From positions 512,001-576,000 of the forward strand of contig CAVSIV010000006.1 of NCBI GenBank assembly GCA_963728205.1: a DNA stretch of 64,000 nt. Direction: 5' to 3'. The notes beneath the pieces are model-generated. The model was not told the DNA's origin, searched no databases, and saw only the letters and a program-made list of their open reading frames with translations. The position numbers were made by a program, and so were the translations under genes. The stretch comes from an uncultured Chloroflexia bacterium. GTDB taxonomy: Bacteria; Chloroflexota; Dehalococcoidia; UBA2979. Shown one piece after another: positions 44,089 through 52,694 of this stretch (position 1 is the stretch's first letter; the number at the start of each line of letters is the position of its first letter).

Positions 44089-44311
44089 GGCGCCCGATCC
44101 CTCCGTCGCCCGGCGTGCGCACGGGGCCGCCACCGGGAGGCCACGTGGCCCGGAGCGCGCCGCGGCGTGTTCGCTCGGGGGTGTCGCCTCGTCACCGTCC
44201 CCGGCGACGGTGCGATCGGCACCCTGCCGGCTGCCGCTGGAATCCGGTTGCGTGGACGGCCGCTCGTACGCTCGATCCGAACGCACCCCTGTCGCCCGCG
44301 TTGGAACCGAC

Positions 44312-45382
44312 ATGAGCACGACACGCCCCACCCGCATTCGCTTCGCGATCCTCGCCGCCGCGGCCGCCGCGTTCGCCGCCGTCCTGCTGGCGGCGCCGGG
44401 CGGCCCGACGCCCGCACTGGCCGCCGCGAACGCGCTGACCGCGCCGCCGGTCGGCGGCCTCACGCAGGGCGTCGCCGGCACCACGGACCCCGCGGCGCTC
44501 GCCGCCGCGCAGGCGTTCCCCGTCGAGGCGATCTCGATGCTCGACGTCGCGACGCAGCAGTGGCTCATCTACGTGCCCGGCGCGCCGTCGCAGGTCGACA
44601 CGCTGGGGTCGAGCGCGCTCACCGTGAACAGCGTCGTGACGATCCGCCGCACCGGCGCGCCGCCGGCGCCGGGCACGCCCGCCGCGGCCCCGTCCGGCGT
44701 CGCGCCGAGCGGCGCCGGCAACGCCCTGTCCGCGCCGGCACCCGGCGGCCTCACCGTCGGCGTCGCCGGCACGAACGACCCCGCGACGCTCGCGGCCGCG
44801 CAGTCGTTCCCCGTGGAGACGGTGACGCTGCTCGACATCCCGTCGCAGGCGTGGCTCGTCTACGTGCCGGGTGCTCCGGCCTTCGCCAGCTCGCTGCGCA
44901 CCGGCATGCTGCAGGCCGGCTCGGTGGTGACGCTCCGCCGCGCGGGCGGGGCGGGCGCGACGCCGACGTCGACCCCCACCGCCACCACGCCGTCCGGCAT
45001 CGACGCCGCGGCCGAGACGGCGCTGGTCACCGACGTGAACCAGGCGCGCGCCGCGGCCGGGTTGCCCGCGCTGGTCGTCGACGCGACGATCCGCTCGGTC
45101 GCGCGCTCGCACTCGCTCGACATGGTGCAGAACGACTACTTCGCGCATGACAGCCTGGACGGCACCGACCCGTTCCAGCGCATGCGCAACGCCGGCGTGA
45201 CGTTCACCTACGCCGACGAGAACATCGCCGCCGGCAACACGGCCGACGAGGTGCACAGCGAGCTGATGAACTCGGCGCCGCACCGCGCGAACATCCTCGA
45301 CCCGCGCATGCGGCGCATCGGCATCGGCGTCGCGACCGGCGGGACGTACGGGCTCACGGTGACCGAGGACTTCGCGGACTAA
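44312..45382 (+). CDS. Secreted CAP/SCP domain protein with two YxPGAP modules
   Basis: Signal peptide; ARSHSLDM...YFAH, ENIA and MNSAPHRANIL motifs; duplicated ~70-aa module. Confidence 0.9.
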   Translation: MSTTRPTRIRFAILAAAAAAFAAVLLAAPGGPTPALAAANALTAPPVGGLTQGVAGTTDPAALAAAQAFPVEAISMLDVATQQWLIYVPGAPSQVDTLGSSALTVNSVVTIRRTGAPPAPGTPAAAPSGVAPSGAGNALSAPAPGGLTVGVAGTNDPATLAAAQSFPVETVTLLDIPSQAWLVYVPGAPAFASSLRTGMLQAGSVVTLRRAGGAGATPTSTPTATTPSGIDAAAETALVTDVNQARAAAGLPALVVDATIRSVARSHSLDMVQNDYFAHDSLDGTDPFQRMRNAGVTFTYADENIAAGNTADEVHSELMNSAPHRANILDPRMRRIGIGVATGGTYGLTVTEDFAD

Positions 45383-47116: not shown

Positions 47117-48802
47117 ATGAGGCGAACGATCGCGATTCTTGTCGCTGCCGTTCTGACCCTCGCGATTGTGGTGCCTGCGTCTGCGCAGACACCGCTCACC
47201 GTGACGCTTCCGGCCGGCGCGCCGGGGACGATCACGGCGTACGTGAACGGCCAGGCATGCGGCAGCGCCACGACGTCCGCCACCGGCACGTCGCTGCTCA
47301 CGTTGAACGCGACGTGCATCACGCCGGGCGCCACCGTCTCGTTCAAGAACGCCAACGGGCTGAGTCTCGTCGGCACCGTCACGATCCCGGCCAGCGGCTC
47401 GGGCTCGCTGACGCTCACGAGCCTGAGCCTGGCGTCCCCGGTCACGATCACCATCCCGTCCGGGCCCACGGGCCAGATCACGGCGATGGTGAACGGGCAG
47501 GTCTGCGGCACCGTCAACGTGTCGTCGACCGCGACGACGTCGATCGAGCTGCCGGCGACGTGTGTCATCCCCAGTGCAACGGTGACCTTCACCGGCCCGG
47601 GCGGCGGGTCGCTGTCGGGCACGGTGACGATCCCGGCTTCCGGGAGCGGCACCCTGACGCTGGCGAACCTGAACTCGACGTCGCCGGTGAACATCACGCT
47701 GCCCGCGGGTAGCGGCACGATCACGGCGTACGTGAACGGCCAGGCCTGCGGCACTGCCACGCTGTCGGCCGGTTCGACCACGACCCTGTCGCTGCCGGCG
47801 ACCTGCGCGCTCGCAGGCCAGACGGTCAGCTTCACCAACGGGAGCGGCGTGAACCTCGTCAACACGGTCACGATCCCGGCTTCCGGGAGCGGCACCGTCT
47901 CGCTCACGAGCCTGACGACGGTCGCGCCGGTGACCATCACGCTGCCGGCCGGCTCCGGCACGATCACGGCGTACGTGAACGGTGTGTCCTGCGGCAGCGC
48001 GACGCTGTCCGCCGGCTCCACGACGACGCTCACGCTGATGTCGTCCTGCGCCAGCCAGGGCGGGACGATCACGTTCAAGACCGCCCAGGGCGCCACGCTC
48101 GGCACGACCCTCACGGTCCCGGCCGGTGGCGGCTCCCTGACGGTCTCGAGCCTGAATCCGAGCGTCGTGATCGCGATTCCGTCCGGTCCGTCCGGCACGG
48201 TCACCGTGCTGGTGAACGGCCAGATCTGCGGCGTGGTGACGGTGAACCCGGACATGCCGTCCGCGTTCCAGCTGCCTAACTCGTGTGCGATCGCCGGGGC
48301 GACGGTCACGTTCACGACGCCGACCAATGCGTCGCTGAAGCAGACCCTCACGATCCCGGCGGTCGGCGGCACGATCACGCTGCCGAACCTGGACCTCACG
48401 CAGCCGCTCAACCTCGTGCTGCCTGCCGGCAACGAGACGGTCACCGTCCTCGTCAACGGCCAGGTCTGCGCGACGCAGACGCTGTCGGCGACGAGCACGA
48501 CGACCATTGCGCTCCCGTCGACCTGCGTGGTCCCCGGCGCGGTCGTGACCTTCAGGGGCACGGCGGGCCCGATCGCGACGACGCTCGTCGTCCCGATCTC
48601 GGGCACGGGCACGCTGATCCTGACGTCGCTGGCCGGCGGTCCGCCGACGGCGACGCCGACGGTGCCCGGCCCGGCGGCCACCGGTAACGGCGGCCTCCTG
48701 GCGGCCGGCCAGGGCGGCTTCGACTGGATGGCGCTGGCGCTGGTCCTCGCGACCGTCGGTGCCACCGGCGGAGCGGCGCTCGTGATCCGCAAGCGCAGCT
48801 AG
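47117..48802 (+). CDS. Secreted six-repeat surface protein with a sortase-type sorting signal
   Basis: Signal peptide (ASA-Q), six ~80-aa VNGxxC...C repeats, PAATGNGG + TM helix + RKRS. Confidence 0.88.
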   Translation: MRRTIAILVAAVLTLAIVVPASAQTPLTVTLPAGAPGTITAYVNGQACGSATTSATGTSLLTLNATCITPGATVSFKNANGLSLVGTVTIPASGSGSLTLTSLSLASPVTITIPSGPTGQITAMVNGQVCGTVNVSSTATTSIELPATCVIPSATVTFTGPGGGSLSGTVTIPASGSGTLTLANLNSTSPVNITLPAGSGTITAYVNGQACGTATLSAGSTTTLSLPATCALAGQTVSFTNGSGVNLVNTVTIPASGSGTVSLTSLTTVAPVTITLPAGSGTITAYVNGVSCGSATLSAGSTTTLTLMSSCASQGGTITFKTAQGATLGTTLTVPAGGGSLTVSSLNPSVVIAIPSGPSGTVTVLVNGQICGVVTVNPDMPSAFQLPNSCAIAGATVTFTTPTNASLKQTLTIPAVGGTITLPNLDLTQPLNLVLPAGNETVTVLVNGQVCATQTLSATSTTTIALPSTCVVPGAVVTFRGTAGPIATTLVVPISGTGTLILTSLAGGPPTATPTVPGPAATGNGGLLAAGQGGFDWMALALVLATVGATGGAALVIRKRS

Positions 48803-48919
48803 CGCTGCGGACTGCAGGGGCGCGTCCACCCCGGTGGGCGCGCCCCCTTCGCGCCGGCGCGCGGCTCACCCCGGTCGAGTCGCGCGCCGGCCATCCGATT
48901 GCCCCGAGGACACGGACTC

Positions 48920-49804
48920 ATGTCGACCTGGTGGAAGTACGCGACCGTCGCGGCACTGCTCGCGGTCGCCCTGGTCTCCGCGACCGTGCTGGTCTCGCAC
49001 GAGAGCACCCACAGCGGCACGCCGCTGGCGCGCTCGCTCACGGGCGCGCCGCACGGCTCGCAGGCAGCGGCCCCCGCCACCGGCGCCGCACGCGCCGACA
49101 GCGCCGGCAGCGCCGGCAGCGCCGCGAACGCGACCTCGGTCGCGGCCGGCCTGCTCGACGCGCCGACCGCCGTGGTCGGCGAGCTCGACGCGGGCGGCGA
49201 CGCGACTCCCGTCGCGAGCGCACACCCGGCGACGCGCGCCGCCGCGACCGCCGCCGCGCAGGCGGCCACCGCCGGCGCAACCGCGTCGGCATCGGCCGGC
49301 TCGCGCGGCGAGGCCACCAGTCGCGCGCCCGCCGCCGTCGCGTCGCACGACGAGCCGTCCGGCGCGATCGCGCGGCTGCTCGCGCCGGCAGCAGGCATCG
49401 ACGCCCCGGTCGTGCTCGGCGGCGTCGACGCGAACACGCACCTGATGGTCGCGCCACGCGGCCCGTGGGTCGTGGCGTGGTACGGCTACAGCGCGGTGCC
49501 GGGCCAGGGCGGCAACGCCGTCTTCGCCGGGCACGTCGACTACGTCAACGTCGGCGAGGCCGTGTTCTGGAACCTGCGCGACCTGCAGCCGGGCGACCGC
49601 ATCGCGGTGCAGCTGGCCGACGGCCGGACGCTCGACTACCGCGTGCAGTTCAATCGCGTGTACGGCGCGTCGTCCGGCCCGTGGACGACCCTCTTCAGCC
49701 CGTCCGCCGGCAACGACGTGATCACGCTCTACACGTGCGACGGCACGTTCCACGACGGCGAGTACTCGTCGCGGCGCGTCGTGCGGGCCGTGCGCGACGG
49801 CTGA
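48920..49804 (+). CDS. Class F sortase 1
   Basis: GNAVFAGHVDY, TLYTC and RRVVRA (His/Cys/Arg triad); N-terminal TM helix. Confidence 0.93.
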   Translation: MSTWWKYATVAALLAVALVSATVLVSHESTHSGTPLARSLTGAPHGSQAAAPATGAARADSAGSAGSAANATSVAAGLLDAPTAVVGELDAGGDATPVASAHPATRAAATAAAQAATAGATASASAGSRGEATSRAPAAVASHDEPSGAIARLLAPAAGIDAPVVLGGVDANTHLMVAPRGPWVVAWYGYSAVPGQGGNAVFAGHVDYVNVGEAVFWNLRDLQPGDRIAVQLADGRTLDYRVQFNRVYGASSGPWTTLFSPSAGNDVITLYTCDGTFHDGEYSSRRVVRAVRDG

Positions 49805-49922
49805 TCGCTCCGCCCCCGCACCGCGCGCGGCGGGCGTCGCCATGCGGGCCGCAGCCCGCACGATCTCACGCGCACGTCACCGCACGCGCCCGGCGCCGCG
49901 CGGTGTCCTCCGCCGGGGCCCG

Positions 49923-49936
49923 TCACGAATTCGTGA
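49923..49936. promoter_or_regulatory. Perfect 14-bp palindrome, candidate operator
   Basis: TCACGAATTCGTGA in the AT-richer spacer upstream of sortase 2. Confidence 0.4.
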
Positions 49937-50074
49937 TAGGCATGGTTCCCCCGATGGATTCAGTCGAGTCGCCGGTGATACGACTCTGTAACCACAGGCG
50001 CGGTCGATGCTGGCCCTCGTGGCTCGCCTGCCCCGTCTAGCCGTCCGGAACTCGCACTGCTGCTGGGGACTGCC

Positions 50075-50923
50075 TTGATCCGCACTCGCCTCTCGGCCGC
50101 GCTTCGCGCGCGCGCCCCCTTCACCATCGCGTCCACCCTGCTCCTCGTTGCGCTCGGCCTGCTGGCGGCCTGCGGTCCGTCCAGCGGCGTCGCCGCGACC
50201 GGTGTCCCGGCCACCGCCACGCCGGAGGCCGTCGTCGTCGCCGCACCGGCGATCGCGGCACGCGGCGAGATCGACGGCGGCGCCGAGGCGCCCCCCACCG
50301 CGACCGGCGCGAGCGTGCGCGGCTCGCTCGCCCGCGTCGCCGCCCAGGATGCCGTCGAGCACATCGCCGCCATCGCGCAACAGCGCGAGCAGGCGCTCGC
50401 GCAGAAGGTGGTCACCGGCGACCCGCACTTCACGACGTACAGCGACGCCCACGACCTCGCGCCGTCCGACACACCAGACCCCGTCGTCGAACGCATCCAG
50501 ATGCCGGCGGCCGGCATCGACACGCGCGTCGTGACCGGCTGGATCAGCTCGCAGAAGAACGTCATGCTCGCGCCGCGCGGCCCCTGGCCGATCGCGTGGT
50601 ACGGCTACAGCGCCGTCCCCGGCCACGGCGGCAACGCGGTCTTCGCCGGCCACTACGACTACGTCAACGTCGGCTCGGCCGCGCTCGGCAACCTCTACAA
50701 GATGCAGCCTGGCGACACGATCCAGATCGTGATGACCGACGGCACGGTCCTCACCTACCGCGTCGCCTGGAATCGCACGTACTCGCGCAACGACGGTCCG
50801 TGGACGACGATCTTCAGCCCCCACGACGGCAACAACGTGATCACCGTCTACACGTGCTCCGGCAACTTCGTCGGCGGCGACTACAGCAACCGCCGCGTCG
50901 TGCGCGCCGTGCGCGTGGGGTAG
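50075..50923 (+). CDS. Class F sortase 2 (lipoprotein)
   Basis: LLAA-C lipobox; GNAVFAGHYDY, TVYTC and RRVVRA motifs. Confidence 0.92.
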   Translation: MIRTRLSAALRARAPFTIASTLLLVALGLLAACGPSSGVAATGVPATATPEAVVVAAPAIAARGEIDGGAEAPPTATGASVRGSLARVAAQDAVEHIAAIAQQREQALAQKVVTGDPHFTTYSDAHDLAPSDTPDPVVERIQMPAAGIDTRVVTGWISSQKNVMLAPRGPWPIAWYGYSAVPGHGGNAVFAGHYDYVNVGSAALGNLYKMQPGDTIQIVMTDGTVLTYRVAWNRTYSRNDGPWTTIFSPHDGNNVITVYTCSGNFVGGDYSNRRVVRAVRVG

Positions 50924-51070
50924 GCGGAACGGGGGCGCACGGGTTGGCGGGCGACGCCGCTATCCCCTGCGCGCCACGAGTGATATCGAATGAGCGCCCG
51001 TTTCCGCGGGCGACATCGGCGGGGATGCAGCGCGTGACTGCGTGAGTCCGCGCCCGCCGGGGATCGCCGC

Positions 51071-51949
51071 ATGCGGAAGCAACTCGAGATCGTCCTGGTC
51101 GTGTTGATTGTGGTCGCGCTCGGCGCCGGGGTACTAGCGTCGCGCGGGCTCGTGCATGCGGGCGCGCACGAGCAGCGCGTGCTCGTCGAGCGGTCGGCCA
51201 CCGCCGCCCGCGCCGGCACGCCGGCGGAGGCGTCTGCGGCTGCGTCGGTCGTCTCCACCGGCGCCGAGATGGGCATCTCGATCGCACCGAGCGCGCGACG
51301 CCACGGCGGCGAGATCGACGCCGGCGGCGCGGCCACCGCTCCTCGCGCCGCGCTCACGGTCGCCTACGCGCGCGCGCTGATCGCGAGCGCGAGCGCCGCG
51401 GGGCCGAACGGCATCACCGGCGCCCAGGCCGGCGGCGGCGACGGTTACGTCACGAGCAACGCCGCCACCAATCCGCACGGCCTCGCGCCGTCCGACACGC
51501 CCAGCCCGATCGTCTCGCGCATCCGCGTCCCGGTCGCCGGCATCGACGCCGAGGTCGACACGGGCTACGTCGACCGCGGCACGAACGCCATGCTCGCCCC
51601 GCGCGGTCCGTGGGTCGTCGACTGGTACCCGTACAGCGCCGTCCCCGGCACGGGCGGCAACGCCGTGTTCGCCGGCCACGTCGACTACATCAACATCGGC
51701 GGCGCCGTGTTCTGGCACCTGCGCGACCTCGGCCCCGGCGACCACATCGAGATCACGCTCGCCGACGGCTCCGTGCTGACCTACGCGGTGGAGTACAACC
51801 GGCTCTACTCGGCGGCGTCGGGCCCGTGGAACGAGCTGTTCAACCCGGGCGCCGGCCACGACGTGCTGACCATCTACACCTGCGACGGCAACTTCGTGGG
51901 CGGCGACTACTCGAGCCGCCGCGTAGTGCGGGGCACTCGCGTGCGGTGA
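51071..51949 (+). CDS. Class F sortase 3
   Basis: N-terminal TM helix; GNAVFAGHVDY, TIYTC and RRVVRG motifs. Confidence 0.93.
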   Translation: MRKQLEIVLVVLIVVALGAGVLASRGLVHAGAHEQRVLVERSATAARAGTPAEASAAASVVSTGAEMGISIAPSARRHGGEIDAGGAATAPRAALTVAYARALIASASAAGPNGITGAQAGGGDGYVTSNAATNPHGLAPSDTPSPIVSRIRVPVAGIDAEVDTGYVDRGTNAMLAPRGPWVVDWYPYSAVPGTGGNAVFAGHVDYINIGGAVFWHLRDLGPGDHIEITLADGSVLTYAVEYNRLYSAASGPWNELFNPGAGHDVLTIYTCDGNFVGGDYSSRRVVRGTRVR

Positions 51950-51979
51950 TTTCCGCGCTCGCGCCGGCGGCAGCTGTTG

Positions 51980-52641
51980 CTGCCGCCGGCTGAATCCTCC
52001 TCCGCCCGCGTCAGCTTGCGCTGGGCACGGGCTCCGTCGGCGCGCGGTCGGCAGGAACATGCCACCGGTCAGGCCGGCGGTCGGTCGACCGGGGCCGGGT
52101 CGCGCGGCTGGCGCCGGCGCTCGCGTCGCGCCGCAGTTCCGCGGAACGATATGAGGAAGTCGAGCGATCCGCGCAAGCCGCCGCGGGCGCGAGCGCGGCA
52201 GAGCAAGCCACTTTGCCCAACCGCGCGCCGACGGAGGCCGTGCCCAGCGCCAGCTGACGCGGCCGGAGGAGGATCTAGCCCGCGGCCGCGCAAGCTGCCG
52301 CGGGCGCGAGCGCGGCACACCCAGCCACTTCGCGCCGACCGCGCGCCGACGGAGGCCGTGCCCAGCGCCAGCTGACGCGGCCGGAGGAGGATCTAGCCCG
52401 CGGCCGCGCAAGCTGCCGCGGGCGCGAGCGCGGGAAACACGGAGGCCGTGCCCAGCGCCAGCTGACGCGGCCGGAGGAGGATCTAGCCCGCGGCCGCGCA
52501 AGCTGCCGCGGGCGCGAGCGCGGCACACCCAGCCACTTCGCGCCGACCGCGCGCCGACGGAGGCCGCGCCCAGCGCCAGCTGACGCGGCCGGAGGAGGAT
52601 CTAGCCCGCGGCCGCGCAAGCTGCCGCGGGCGCGAGCGCGG
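51980..52641. repeat. Tandem repeat with 118/90-bp period (four ~85-bp cores) plus one inverted degenerate copy
   Basis: Core ACGGAGGCCGTGCCCAGCGCCAGCTGACGCGGCCGGAGGAGGATCTAG... starts at 52231, 52349, 52439 and 52557; inverted copy at about 51980-52052. Confidence 0.9.
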
Positions 52642-52694
52642 AAAGAACAAGCGCGCTAGCCGGGGACGGCGGACGCCGTCCCCGGCTAGCGCGC
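52641..52694 (-). terminator. Intrinsic terminator of the amt-P-II operon
   Basis: Perfect 20-bp stem, 4-nt loop, followed by UUGUUCUUUC on the minus strand. Confidence 0.85.

What the first reader, a model, noticed from the sequence alone, without database searches (positions are those of the whole stretch)
47117..51949. One surface protein plus three tandem class F sortases: candidate undescribed surface-assembly system
Seen: a secreted repeat protein ending in PT-linker, PAATG-NGG, TM helix, RKRS, followed on the same strand by three paralogous sortases with intact His/Cys/Arg triads. Two are TM-anchored, one is a lipoprotein, and all have long Ala-rich stalks. Known: multi-sortase clusters beside a substrate are typical of class C pilus loci, whereas class F enzymes are little characterised and the canonical motif is LPxTG. 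Inference: a dedicated system that anchors, cross-links or polymerises a surface layer or fibre through a PxxTG signal, probably in a Chloroflexota envelope where the acceptor may not be standard lipid II.
Basis: partly seen in the sequence, partly recalled or inferred. Interest (0 to 1): 0.85.

Follow-up and report, generated by a model that had tools for sequence, protein, structure and literature searches.

The report
Sortase trio beside its surface substrate
A soil Chloroflexota genome carries a small gene cluster for one bead-like surface protein and three sister enzymes that probably fasten it to the cell wall through an unusual version of the classic attachment signal.

Summary
Window 47117-51949 (+) encodes a secreted protein followed by three paralogous sortases. 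The protein has six (not seven) ~80-aa Cys-pair Ig-like repeats, a PT linker, PGPAATG, a 14-aa spacer, a TM helix and RKRS. All three sortases keep His/Cys/Arg. Two are TM-anchored and one has a canonical lipobox. Their linkers are 104-116 aa, Ala-rich and disordered.

"Class F" is only their best match: 71-87 bits against a cut-off of 166.

The signal is not private to this protein. P-x-P-A-x-[TS]-G stands before 13 of 214 TM+basic tails in this genome (0.15 expected), and is invariant in 12 of 12 homologues of the substrate. The genome holds nine sortases, peptidoglycan genes and no Omp85.

The trio is a lineage-specific triplication in a variable region, missing from three same-genus genomes. 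Other Chloroflexota have older, position-conserved arrays of 2-4 sortases next to xPxTG-tail proteins.

No conserved Lys, lid or second pilin supports polymerisation. The best reading is wall anchoring by a divergent sortase system: a new variant of a known kind.

The parts
47117..48802 (+). Substrate gene (561 aa): signal peptide, six Ig-like repeats, PT linker, sorting signal
   Evidence: ORF. AF2 model with mean pLDDT 77.8 shows six all-beta domains. Seventeen homologues at 40-46% identity, none with a Pfam domain.
47117..47185 (+). Signal peptide ending ASA|Q. Ser22 is nearly invariant; Ala23 and Gln24 are invariant in 12 of 12 homologues.
   Evidence: Helix 2-18 in the model; invariant columns in alignment A3.
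47192..48640 (+). Six tandem ~80-aa repeats, each with two invariant Cys and a seven-strand beta sandwich
   Evidence: Six HMM domains; alignment A5; Foldseek best matches are tandem Ig-like arrays 4p99 and 6fwv.
48665..48685 (+). Sorting motif P-G-P-A-A-T-G (residues 517-523), with the predicted scissile bond between T522 and G523
   Evidence: P517, P519, A520, T522 and G523 are invariant in 12 of 12 homologues. Genome-wide enrichment is 13 observed against 0.15 expected. The cleavage position is inferred from other sortases (PMC4155245 passages).
48728..48799 (+). C-terminal TM helix (residues 538-558) and basic tail RKRS
   Evidence: Helix 538-558 in the AF2 model; sequence.
48899..49804 (+). 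Sortase S1: TM-anchored, 116-aa Ala-rich disordered linker, catalytic domain about residues 150-300
   Evidence: Pfam 75.7 bits. AF2 shows TM 9-32 and a catalytic domain with pLDDT above 90. Foldseek finds sortases at E 3e-10. The public gene call starts at 48920.
50075..50923 (+). Sortase S2: signal peptide with lipobox LLAAC (predicted lipoprotein), 104-aa linker
   Evidence: Pfam 60.8 bits; sequence; Lgt and LspA present in the genome.
51071..51949 (+). Sortase S3: TM-anchored, 114-aa linker
   Evidence: Pfam 64.1 bits; sequence. A metagenome protein, P0019, is 72% identical to the query (S1 catalytic domain) and has an S3-like N-terminus.

Best explanation
This is an accessory four-gene unit, probably an operon, of a peptidoglycan-containing Chloroflexota bacterium that appears to be monoderm.

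Proposed steps:
1. The first gene product is exported by its signal peptide and held in the membrane by its C-terminal TM helix and RKRS tail.
2. One or more of the three paralogous class-F-like sortases attacks the Thr-Gly bond of P-x-P-A-A-T-G with its Cys, helped by the His and Arg of the triad, and forms an acyl-enzyme.
3. An amine of the wall precursor or wall (lipid II stem peptide) resolves the acyl-enzyme. This leaves a ~485-residue, almost uncharged string of six disulfide-braced Ig-like beads covalently fixed to the cell wall.

The PAxTG-N-[AG]-G-L tail is this lineage's general sorting signal. The trio may therefore also serve the other twelve tail-bearing proteins of the genome. 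The three enzymes are recent duplicates that differ mainly in anchor (two TM, one lipoprotein) and linker, so they are partly redundant or sub-functionalised by position in the envelope.

Shown: gene order, fold, catalytic triad, motif conservation and enrichment, envelope gene content, and phylogeny.
Inferred: cleavage at T/G, the acceptor, which sortase acts on which protein, and co-transcription.
For: - Sortase identity: Pfam hits; triad invariant in 43 of 43 aligned sequences; AF2 catalytic domain with pLDDT above 90 and Foldseek sortase matches at E 3e-10.
- The substrate has the full tripartite signal plus a signal peptide.
- PxPAxTG is invariant in 12 of 12 substrate homologues while the flanking tail residues vary.
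- The same motif stands before 13 of 214 TM+basic tails in the genome against 0.15 expected.
- An analogous unit exists in another family of the class. G030 has a single-domain protein with the tail PKPAATGNGGLL followed by two sortases, the first of which is among the nearest relatives of S1-S3.
- Of 79 related loci, 28 have a TG-tail ORF within 1 kb of the sortase(s), including 9 of 16 triple arrays.
- PBPs (6 matches), MraY and SEDS (3 matches) are present, and Omp85 was not found.
- All four genes are on one strand, with SD-like motifs and no terminator-like site on the + strand inside the cluster.
Against: - No biochemical evidence exists for cleavage or for the acceptor.
- The class F HMM cut-off is not reached, and no solved close relative exists (best PDB sequence match E 7.5e-6).
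- The substrate family is not generally linked to sortases. None of the 2 other loci examined has a sortase beside it: L121 with 10 kb either side, and L122 with only about 1 kb downstream.
- A same-genus genome that lacks S1-S3 still has a PAATGNAGL tail on its fasciclin protein. PAxTG processing therefore does not need this trio, and the trio's specific role is open.
- The genome is 89% complete, so the missing Omp85 is weak evidence.
- The terminator scan is weak in 74% G+C DNA.
Confidence: 0.6

Rival explanations
1. Assembly line: the three sortases divide labour as in pilus loci. One or two polymerise or cross-link the bead protein into a fibre, sheath or surface layer, and another ends the chain on the wall.
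For: - Several sortases beside a substrate is the pilus-locus pattern.
- The best Foldseek and PDB sequence matches of S1 are class C sortases, though only marginally ahead of classes D, E and A.
- The substrate is a rod of Ig-like beads like pilins and adhesin stalks.
- In other Chloroflexota the triads are ancient and position-conserved. Positions p1, p2 and p3 form clades of 10 of 10 rows each, supported at 100, 100 and 98. The p1 enzyme is lipobox-like in 11 of 11. This argues for non-redundant roles there.
- The window's trio has independently arrived at the same composition of one lipoprotein plus two TM-anchored enzymes.
Against: - There is only one substrate gene.
- No Lys is conserved in the mature protein. 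The window protein has 3 Lys, none conserved in 12 homologues, and some homologues have none.
- The invariant N-terminal Gln after the signal peptidase site could cyclise and block the amine (inference).
- There is no C-terminal TM helix, and I saw no DPW-type lid motif by eye in the sequences. The class C HMM gives 28.7 bits against a cut-off of 160 for S1 and no hit at E 0.01 or better for S2 or S3.
- S1-S3 are recent paralogues with similar loops around the active site.
Confidence: 0.12
2. General housekeeping sortases: adjacency to this protein is incidental or only regulatory. S1-S3 are the main enzymes for all PAxTG proteins of this genome, amplified for dosage.
For: - Thirteen PAxTG-tail proteins are scattered over the genome.
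- The three catalytic domains are 59-63% identical, with every family-invariant residue kept.
- The window's genome is larger (4.1 Mb) than its same-genus relatives (2.5-3.1 Mb).
Against: - Six other sortases exist in the genome. Several lie 5-11 kb from other tail-bearing genes.
- Same-genus genomes use the same tail without this trio.
- The G030 unit pairs the same sortase clade with the same domain family and the same PAATGNGGLL tail, which points to a cognate pair.
Confidence: 0.15
3. Non-peptidoglycan acceptor: the sortases transfer the protein to another envelope polymer or lipid, reached through their ~110-residue flexible linkers.
For: - The linkers are unusually long. Relatives are mostly 204-250 aa in total against 282-301 aa here.
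- A long conserved spacer, N-[AG]-G-L..., follows the cleavage site.
Against: A full set of peptidoglycan synthesis genes is present, and nothing in the cluster encodes a polymer synthase.
Confidence: 0.08
4. Unprocessed membrane protein: the tail is merely a C-terminal TM anchor and the motif is compositional.
For: The genome is 74% G+C, so P/A/T/G-rich strings are common.
Against: The motif is invariant in 12 of 12 homologues. It is enriched about 85-fold before TM+basic tails, while scrambled controls give 0-1 hits. It recurs next to sortases in relatives.
Confidence: 0.05

Closest known systems
Class F sortase (the only characterised member is Propionibacterium acnes SrtF; NCBIfam NF033748)
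   Same: It is the best-scoring class for all three enzymes. NCBI names relatives at 40-52% identity 'class F sortase'. The enzymes have an N-terminal anchor, a His/Cys/Arg triad and no lid. The physiological role of class F is unknown (passages of PMC13251363 and PMC8225981).
   Different: Scores are 71-87 bits against a cut-off of 166, and the NCBI-named relatives also score only 90-125 bits. The neighbouring signal is PAATG, not the LPXTG reported for P. acnes SrtF (PMC8225981 passage). The linkers are about 110 aa and one enzyme is a predicted lipoprotein.
Class E sortases with LAXTG signals (Streptomyces SrtE1/E2, Corynebacterium)
   Same: Ala sits at position P3 of the signal in place of the canonical Pro, and the hosts are high-G+C soil bacteria. 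Class E enzymes are proposed to read Ala at P3 with a Tyr in the beta3/beta4 loop (PMC5148588 passages). This family has an invariant Tyr195 at the end of beta3. Equivalence of the two Tyr residues was not tested by superposition.
   Different: P4 is Pro, not Leu. The class E HMM gives 29-42 bits against a cut-off of 160. A conserved N-[AG]-G-L follows the cleavage site.
Clostridium difficile SrtB with (S/P)PXTG signals
   Same: It is a precedent for a non-Leu residue (Pro) at P4 and for one enzyme serving several surface proteins, with cleavage between T and G shown by MS (PMC4155245 passages). Relatives of the window's sortases sit next to PPxTG, GPxTG and FPxTG tails.
   Different: C. difficile SrtB is a class B enzyme of Bacillota. 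In the window's lineage the canonical Pro at P3 is itself replaced by Ala.
Class C pilus loci (Corynebacterium, Actinomyces, streptococci)
   Same: Several sortase genes stand beside genes for Ig-like-domain substrates. Class C structures top the Foldseek list for S1.
   Different: There is no C-terminal TM helix, no DPW-type lid motif seen by eye, no pilin-motif Lys and only a single substrate gene. The class C HMM scores far below its cut-off.

Membership tests
Sortase superfamily (Pfam PF04203) | HMM score above the gathering cut-off | tested here: met
   75.7, 60.8 and 64.1 bits against 26.6.
Sortase superfamily (Pfam PF04203) | Catalytic His-Cys-Arg triad with a TLxTC-type Cys motif | tested here: met
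   H212, C280 and R292 are invariant in 7 of 7 and 43 of 43 sequences. The motif reads T[LVI]YTC.
Sortase superfamily (Pfam PF04203) | Sortase beta-barrel fold | tested here: met
   AF2 catalytic domain with pLDDT above 90. Foldseek gives 121 PDB matches at E 0.001 or better, and all 35 rows listed are sortases.
Class F sortase (NCBIfam NF033748) | HMM score at or above the curated cut-off of 166 bits | tested here: not met
   86.7, 71.2 and 72.5 bits. It is still the best class for all three.
Class F sortase (NCBIfam NF033748) | LPXTG substrate, as for the one characterised member | tested here: not met
   The neighbour carries PGPAATG. Only 1 LPxTG tail was found in the genome against 13 P.PA.[TS]G tails. 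Enzyme specificity itself is not testable here.
Class C (pilus) sortase | Class HMM, C-terminal TM helix, lid over the active site, and pilin partner with a conserved Lys | tested here: not met
   NF033745 gives 28.7 bits against 160 for S1 only. The model ends with the catalytic domain. No Lys is conserved in the substrate. The lid was judged by eye only.
Class E sortase | Class HMM and an LAXTG signal | tested here: not met
   NF033747 gives 41.7, 28.7 and 28.9 bits against 160. The signal has Ala at P3 but Pro at P4.
Cell-wall sorting signal (LPXTG-type) | N-terminal signal peptide plus C-terminal motif, hydrophobic stretch and basic tail | tested here: met
   Sequence and AF2 model.
Cell-wall sorting signal (LPXTG-type) | Recognition by curated anchor models (Pfam Gram_pos_anchor, NCBIfam LPXTG anchor; model names recalled) | tested here: not met
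   None of the 4 tail-bearing proteins matched any anchor model at E 1 or better in Pfam or NCBIfam.
Cell-wall sorting signal (LPXTG-type) | Cleavage between T and G and linkage to peptidoglycan | not testable with these tools
   Needs enzyme assays and MS.

The most novel reading that the evidence does not exclude
The trio is a division-of-labour machine. The membrane-proximal lipoprotein sortase and the two TM-tethered sortases on ~110-residue flexible leashes act at different depths of the envelope. Together they build a covalent surface layer or fibre from an almost uncharged, disulfide-braced Ig-bead protein, using a nucleophile other than the pilin Lys. The same 'one lipoprotein plus two TM' composition arose independently in the old, position-conserved triads of other Chloroflexota. 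That would make multi-sortase assembly a recurrent, undescribed envelope-building strategy of the phylum.
Probability: 0.12. Interest if true: 0.8.

Novelty: new variant of a known kind. Interest (0 to 1): 0.5.

Why it matters
Class F sortases are widespread in high-G+C monoderms, but their physiological role is unknown. A quadruple class F knockout in Actinoplanes showed no phenotype (PMC13251363 passages).

This locus and its relatives offer explicit enzyme-substrate pairs for a class-F-like clade. They also define an extended signal, P-x-P-A-x-T-G-N-[AG]-G-L. No curated anchor model detected that signal in the four tails tested, so surface proteomes of Chloroflexota are probably under-annotated.

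Predicted lipoprotein sortases and position-conserved sortase triads are features worth testing. The enzymes may also interest protein-ligation work as a source of non-LPXTG specificity.

Tried and rejected
- Substrate homology to the upstream proteins of the relatives' triads: BLASTP found none. Those proteins have different bodies but similar tails.
- The repeat HMM against all own-genome ORFs found only the substrate itself, plus one weak hit at E 0.0017. The by-eye similarity to two small tail-bearing proteins is therefore not supported.
- ESM Atlas: best scores were 0.87 or lower, which are leads only.
- Sequencing runs: four soil DNA runs with small shares (0.05-0.09) and no RNA holder listed. 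I did not lay reads.
- The metagenome scan for the substrate family gave a single locus.
- A cupredoxin-like tail-bearing protein (L139) had no match in five related genomes.
- Literature: searches for sortase with Chloroflexi, Chloroflexota, monoderm and lipobox listed nothing on Chloroflexota sortase signals or lipoprotein sortases by title or abstract start. For one search only 12 of 68 hits were listed, and none were read. The sortase tree in the supplement of PMC13251363 could bear on class assignment.
- Complex prediction was not used, because an enzyme-substrate pair would be of little evidential value under the tool's own guidance.
- Sutcliffe's and Malik & Kim's surveys of sortases are recalled only. 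They were not seen and were not used as evidence.
Full report
**What is there.** The window is 72-77% G+C. On the + strand, 47117-51949 holds four ORFs: a 561-aa protein and three sortase paralogues of 301 (or 294), 282 and 292 aa. The gaps between them are 96-117, 270 and 147 nt. Each start is preceded by a GGGGA/GAGGA motif. The terminator scan found no terminator-like site on the + strand inside the cluster, but that scan is weak in DNA this G+C-rich.

All three enzymes pass Pfam Sortase at 75.7, 60.8 and 64.1 bits (cut-off 26.6). In NCBIfam their best class is F, but at 86.7, 71.2 and 72.5 bits against a cut-off of 166. Class E follows at 29-42 bits. His212, Cys280 and Arg292 are invariant in 7 of 7 own-genome sortases and in 43 of 43 aligned relatives.

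An AF2 model of S1 was built from a 43-row alignment. It shows:
- a TM helix at residues 9-32;
- a low-confidence linker, with pLDDT below 50 over 34-113 and 133-145;
- a confident catalytic domain, with pLDDT above 90.

Foldseek finds sortases only among the rows listed. Class C structures come first at E 3e-10, closely followed by classes D, E and A. By sequence the nearest solved chain is a class C sortase at E 7.5e-6.

S2 has a canonical lipobox (LLAAC), and the genome has two Lgt matches and LspA. The linkers are 116, 104 and 114 aa with 26-35% Ala. Most relatives are 204-250 aa in total.

**The substrate.** It has a signal peptide ending ASA|Q and six ~80-aa repeats, not seven. Each repeat has two invariant Cys. 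These are followed by a PT linker, PGPAATG, a 14-residue spacer, a TM helix (538-558) and RKRS.

The AF2 model (mean pLDDT 77.8) shows six seven-strand beta sandwiches and a disordered tail. Foldseek's best matches are tandem Ig-like arrays: the extender of an ice-binding adhesin (4p99) and the B. anthracis TIE protein (6fwv).

The mature 485 residues contain only 3 Lys, 1 Arg, 2 Asp, 2 Glu and no His.

The family is small:
- 17 proteins at 40-46% identity, all 'hypothetical' and without Pfam domains. The three that carry an NCBI name are labelled Dehalococcoidia.
- 2 of 401 genomes of the class have a match.
- A profile of the repeat finds 31 representatives at E 0.001 or better among 1.84 billion.

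In 12 aligned members, P517, P519, A520, T522 and G523 are invariant, and no Lys is conserved. Small single-domain members also end in PPATGN[AG]G tails.

**The signal is genome-wide.** Among 21,492 six-frame ORFs of 100 aa or more, 214 end in a hydrophobic stretch plus a basic tail. P.PA.[TS]G lies just upstream in 13 of them. The expected number from the motif's six-frame density is 0.15. Six scrambled controls gave 0-1 hits, LP.TG gave 1 and LA.TG gave 0 in that scan. An earlier, looser scan also showed one LAYTG tail.

The passengers are diverse: a fasciclin protein, a cupredoxin-like protein (assignment by eye only) and Cys-rich repeat proteins. Most tails continue N-[AG]-G-L. No curated anchor model in Pfam or NCBIfam matched any of the 4 tails tested at E 1 or better.

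The genome has nine sortase-like genes. Pfam finds seven, and two more are found with the trio's profile. Eight are class-F-like. By eye, four have a lipobox or a lipobox-like signal: S2, C6:827k, C1:406k and C6:103k.

**Envelope.** Six PBP transpeptidase matches, MraY and three SEDS genes are present. Omp85 was not found, in a genome that is 89% complete. An ordinary wall acceptor is therefore available, and the cell is probably monoderm.

**Relatives and synteny.** Seventy-nine loci were fetched with the trio's alignment. Most come from MAGs labelled Dehalococcoidia, Chloroflexi, Chloroflexota, Chloroflexia or Thermomicrobia. A few are labelled Dormibacterota, Patescibacteria and others.

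The sortases stand in arrays of the following sizes (ORFs under 90 bits dropped):

| Array size | Loci | With a TG-tail ORF within 1 kb |
|---|---|---|
| 1 | 47 | 18 |
| 2 | 10 | 1 |
| 3 | 16 | 9 |
| 4 | 6 | 0 |

In total 28 of 79 loci have a TM+basic-tail ORF with a TG motif within 1 kb. Five of the seven negative triples have under 1.7 kb of upstream sequence. Five of the six quadruple arrays have one to three such ORFs 2.3-5.6 kb upstream.

Those tails read [PGF]-P-x-T-G-[NT]-G-G-[YF]-L. Their protein bodies are unrelated to the window's substrate.

**Phylogeny.** I built a FastTree of 147 catalytic domains and an IQ-TREE quick tree of 67 rows. The 67 rows were:
- ten triple and five quadruple loci;
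- the G030 pair;
- eight rows from six other loci;
- the three window sortases and four of the six other own-genome sortases (C6:827k and C2:301k were in neither tree).

L013, L022 and all other loci were left out of the 67-row tree.

In the relatives' triples, positions 1, 2 and 3 each form a clade of 10 of 10 rows, supported at 100, 100 and 98. These are old, order-conserved triads. Their position-1 enzyme has a signal peptide ending A-x-A-C-[GS]-G-G in 11 of 11 cases, read from the printed segments. My strict regular expression caught 7 of these.

The window's S1-S3 instead group with each other (support 88). They sit inside a five-row clade with L005_p1 and G030_p1 (support 99). AU tests reject joining S1, S2 or S3 to the p1, p2 or p3 clades, with p = 0.012, 0.0015 and 8e-7. 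These groups were named after I had seen the tree.

The window's trio is therefore an independent triplication.

**Accessory status.** In three same-genus genomes (80-95% complete) the best match to the trio's profile is 99-106 bits, against 485-511 bits for the trio itself. The substrate has no match in them.

In two of these genomes the flanks are syntenic (window 42.6-46.8 kb and 58.3-60.8 kb). The stretch between holds other genes.

One of them, G003, still has a fasciclin orthologue ending APAPAATGNAGL. Tails such as PAPAKTGNAGLL also sit next to sortases in other genera of the family.

The nearest analogue is in G030, which belongs to another family of the class. It has a single-domain protein with two Cys, a VSFTVDG motif and the tail PKPAATGNGGLL, followed by two sortases.

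Two other loci of the substrate family have no sortase beside them.

**Reading.** The simplest account is classical sortase anchoring with a variant signal. Ala at P3 matches class E LAXTG (PMC5148588 passages). Pro at P4 has a precedent in C. difficile (S/P)PXTG (PMC4155245 passages).

Polymerisation is not excluded, but it lacks its usual marks. The independent recurrence of 'one lipoprotein plus two TM sortases' is the most intriguing point in favour of divided roles.

NCBI labels relatives 'class F sortase'. The four labelled relatives I scored reach only 90-125 bits. The group is best called class-F-like.

Noticed in passing
window 52169-52641, and an inverted partial copy at 51946-52052: Tandem 90-118-nt repeats (95-100% identical copies) lie just downstream of S3. 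They belong to a dispersed repeat family with 94 BLAST HSPs on contigs C6, C1 and C4 of the genome. One inverted copy abuts the S3 stop codon. This is possibly a REP/MITE-like element at the edge of the variable region.
   Followed up: partly
window 44210-45382 (+) and L003:11065-11970 (own genome, C6:633k): The CAP/YkwD-domain protein two genes upstream carries two ~70-aa N-terminal repeats. They are 51-55% identical (E 1e-18 and 6e-17) to a C-terminal extension on another sortase of the genome. This is an unnamed domain shared by a sortase and a CAP protein, perhaps a wall-binding module.
   Followed up: partly
window about 46.8-58.2 kb: Relative to two same-genus genomes, this whole stretch (sortase cluster, repeats, P-II, ammonium transporter and more) is replaced by about 4.8 kb of other genes. 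The flanks at 42.6-46.8 kb and 58.3-60.8 kb are syntenic.
   Followed up: partly
L007, L008, L009, L010, L012, L013, L016, L019, L021, L030, L038: These Chloroflexota loci carry position-conserved sortase triads. Position 1 has a lipobox-like signal (A-x-A-C-[GS]-G-G) in 11 of 11, and positions 2 and 3 are TM-anchored. Nine of the eleven listed loci have an upstream protein ending PPxTG[NT]GG[YF]LGQ, of about 490-580 aa in most; L008 and L013 have none within 1 kb. In two loci (L019, L021) the position-2 enzyme lacked a T..TC match to my regular expression.
   Followed up: partly
own genome C6:672639-675530 and C6:1350486-1352567: Two adjacent PAATGNGGL-tail proteins (574 and 389 aa ORFs) were seen. 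One has repeated QCNG..NGGG Cys-rich units that recur in a third, 694-aa tail-bearing protein. The family was not named.
   Followed up: no
window 52651-52694 (- strand): A strong terminator-like hairpin (20 pairs, 17 of them G-C, followed by a T-rich run) lies just downstream of the P-II (glnB-like) gene.
   Followed up: no
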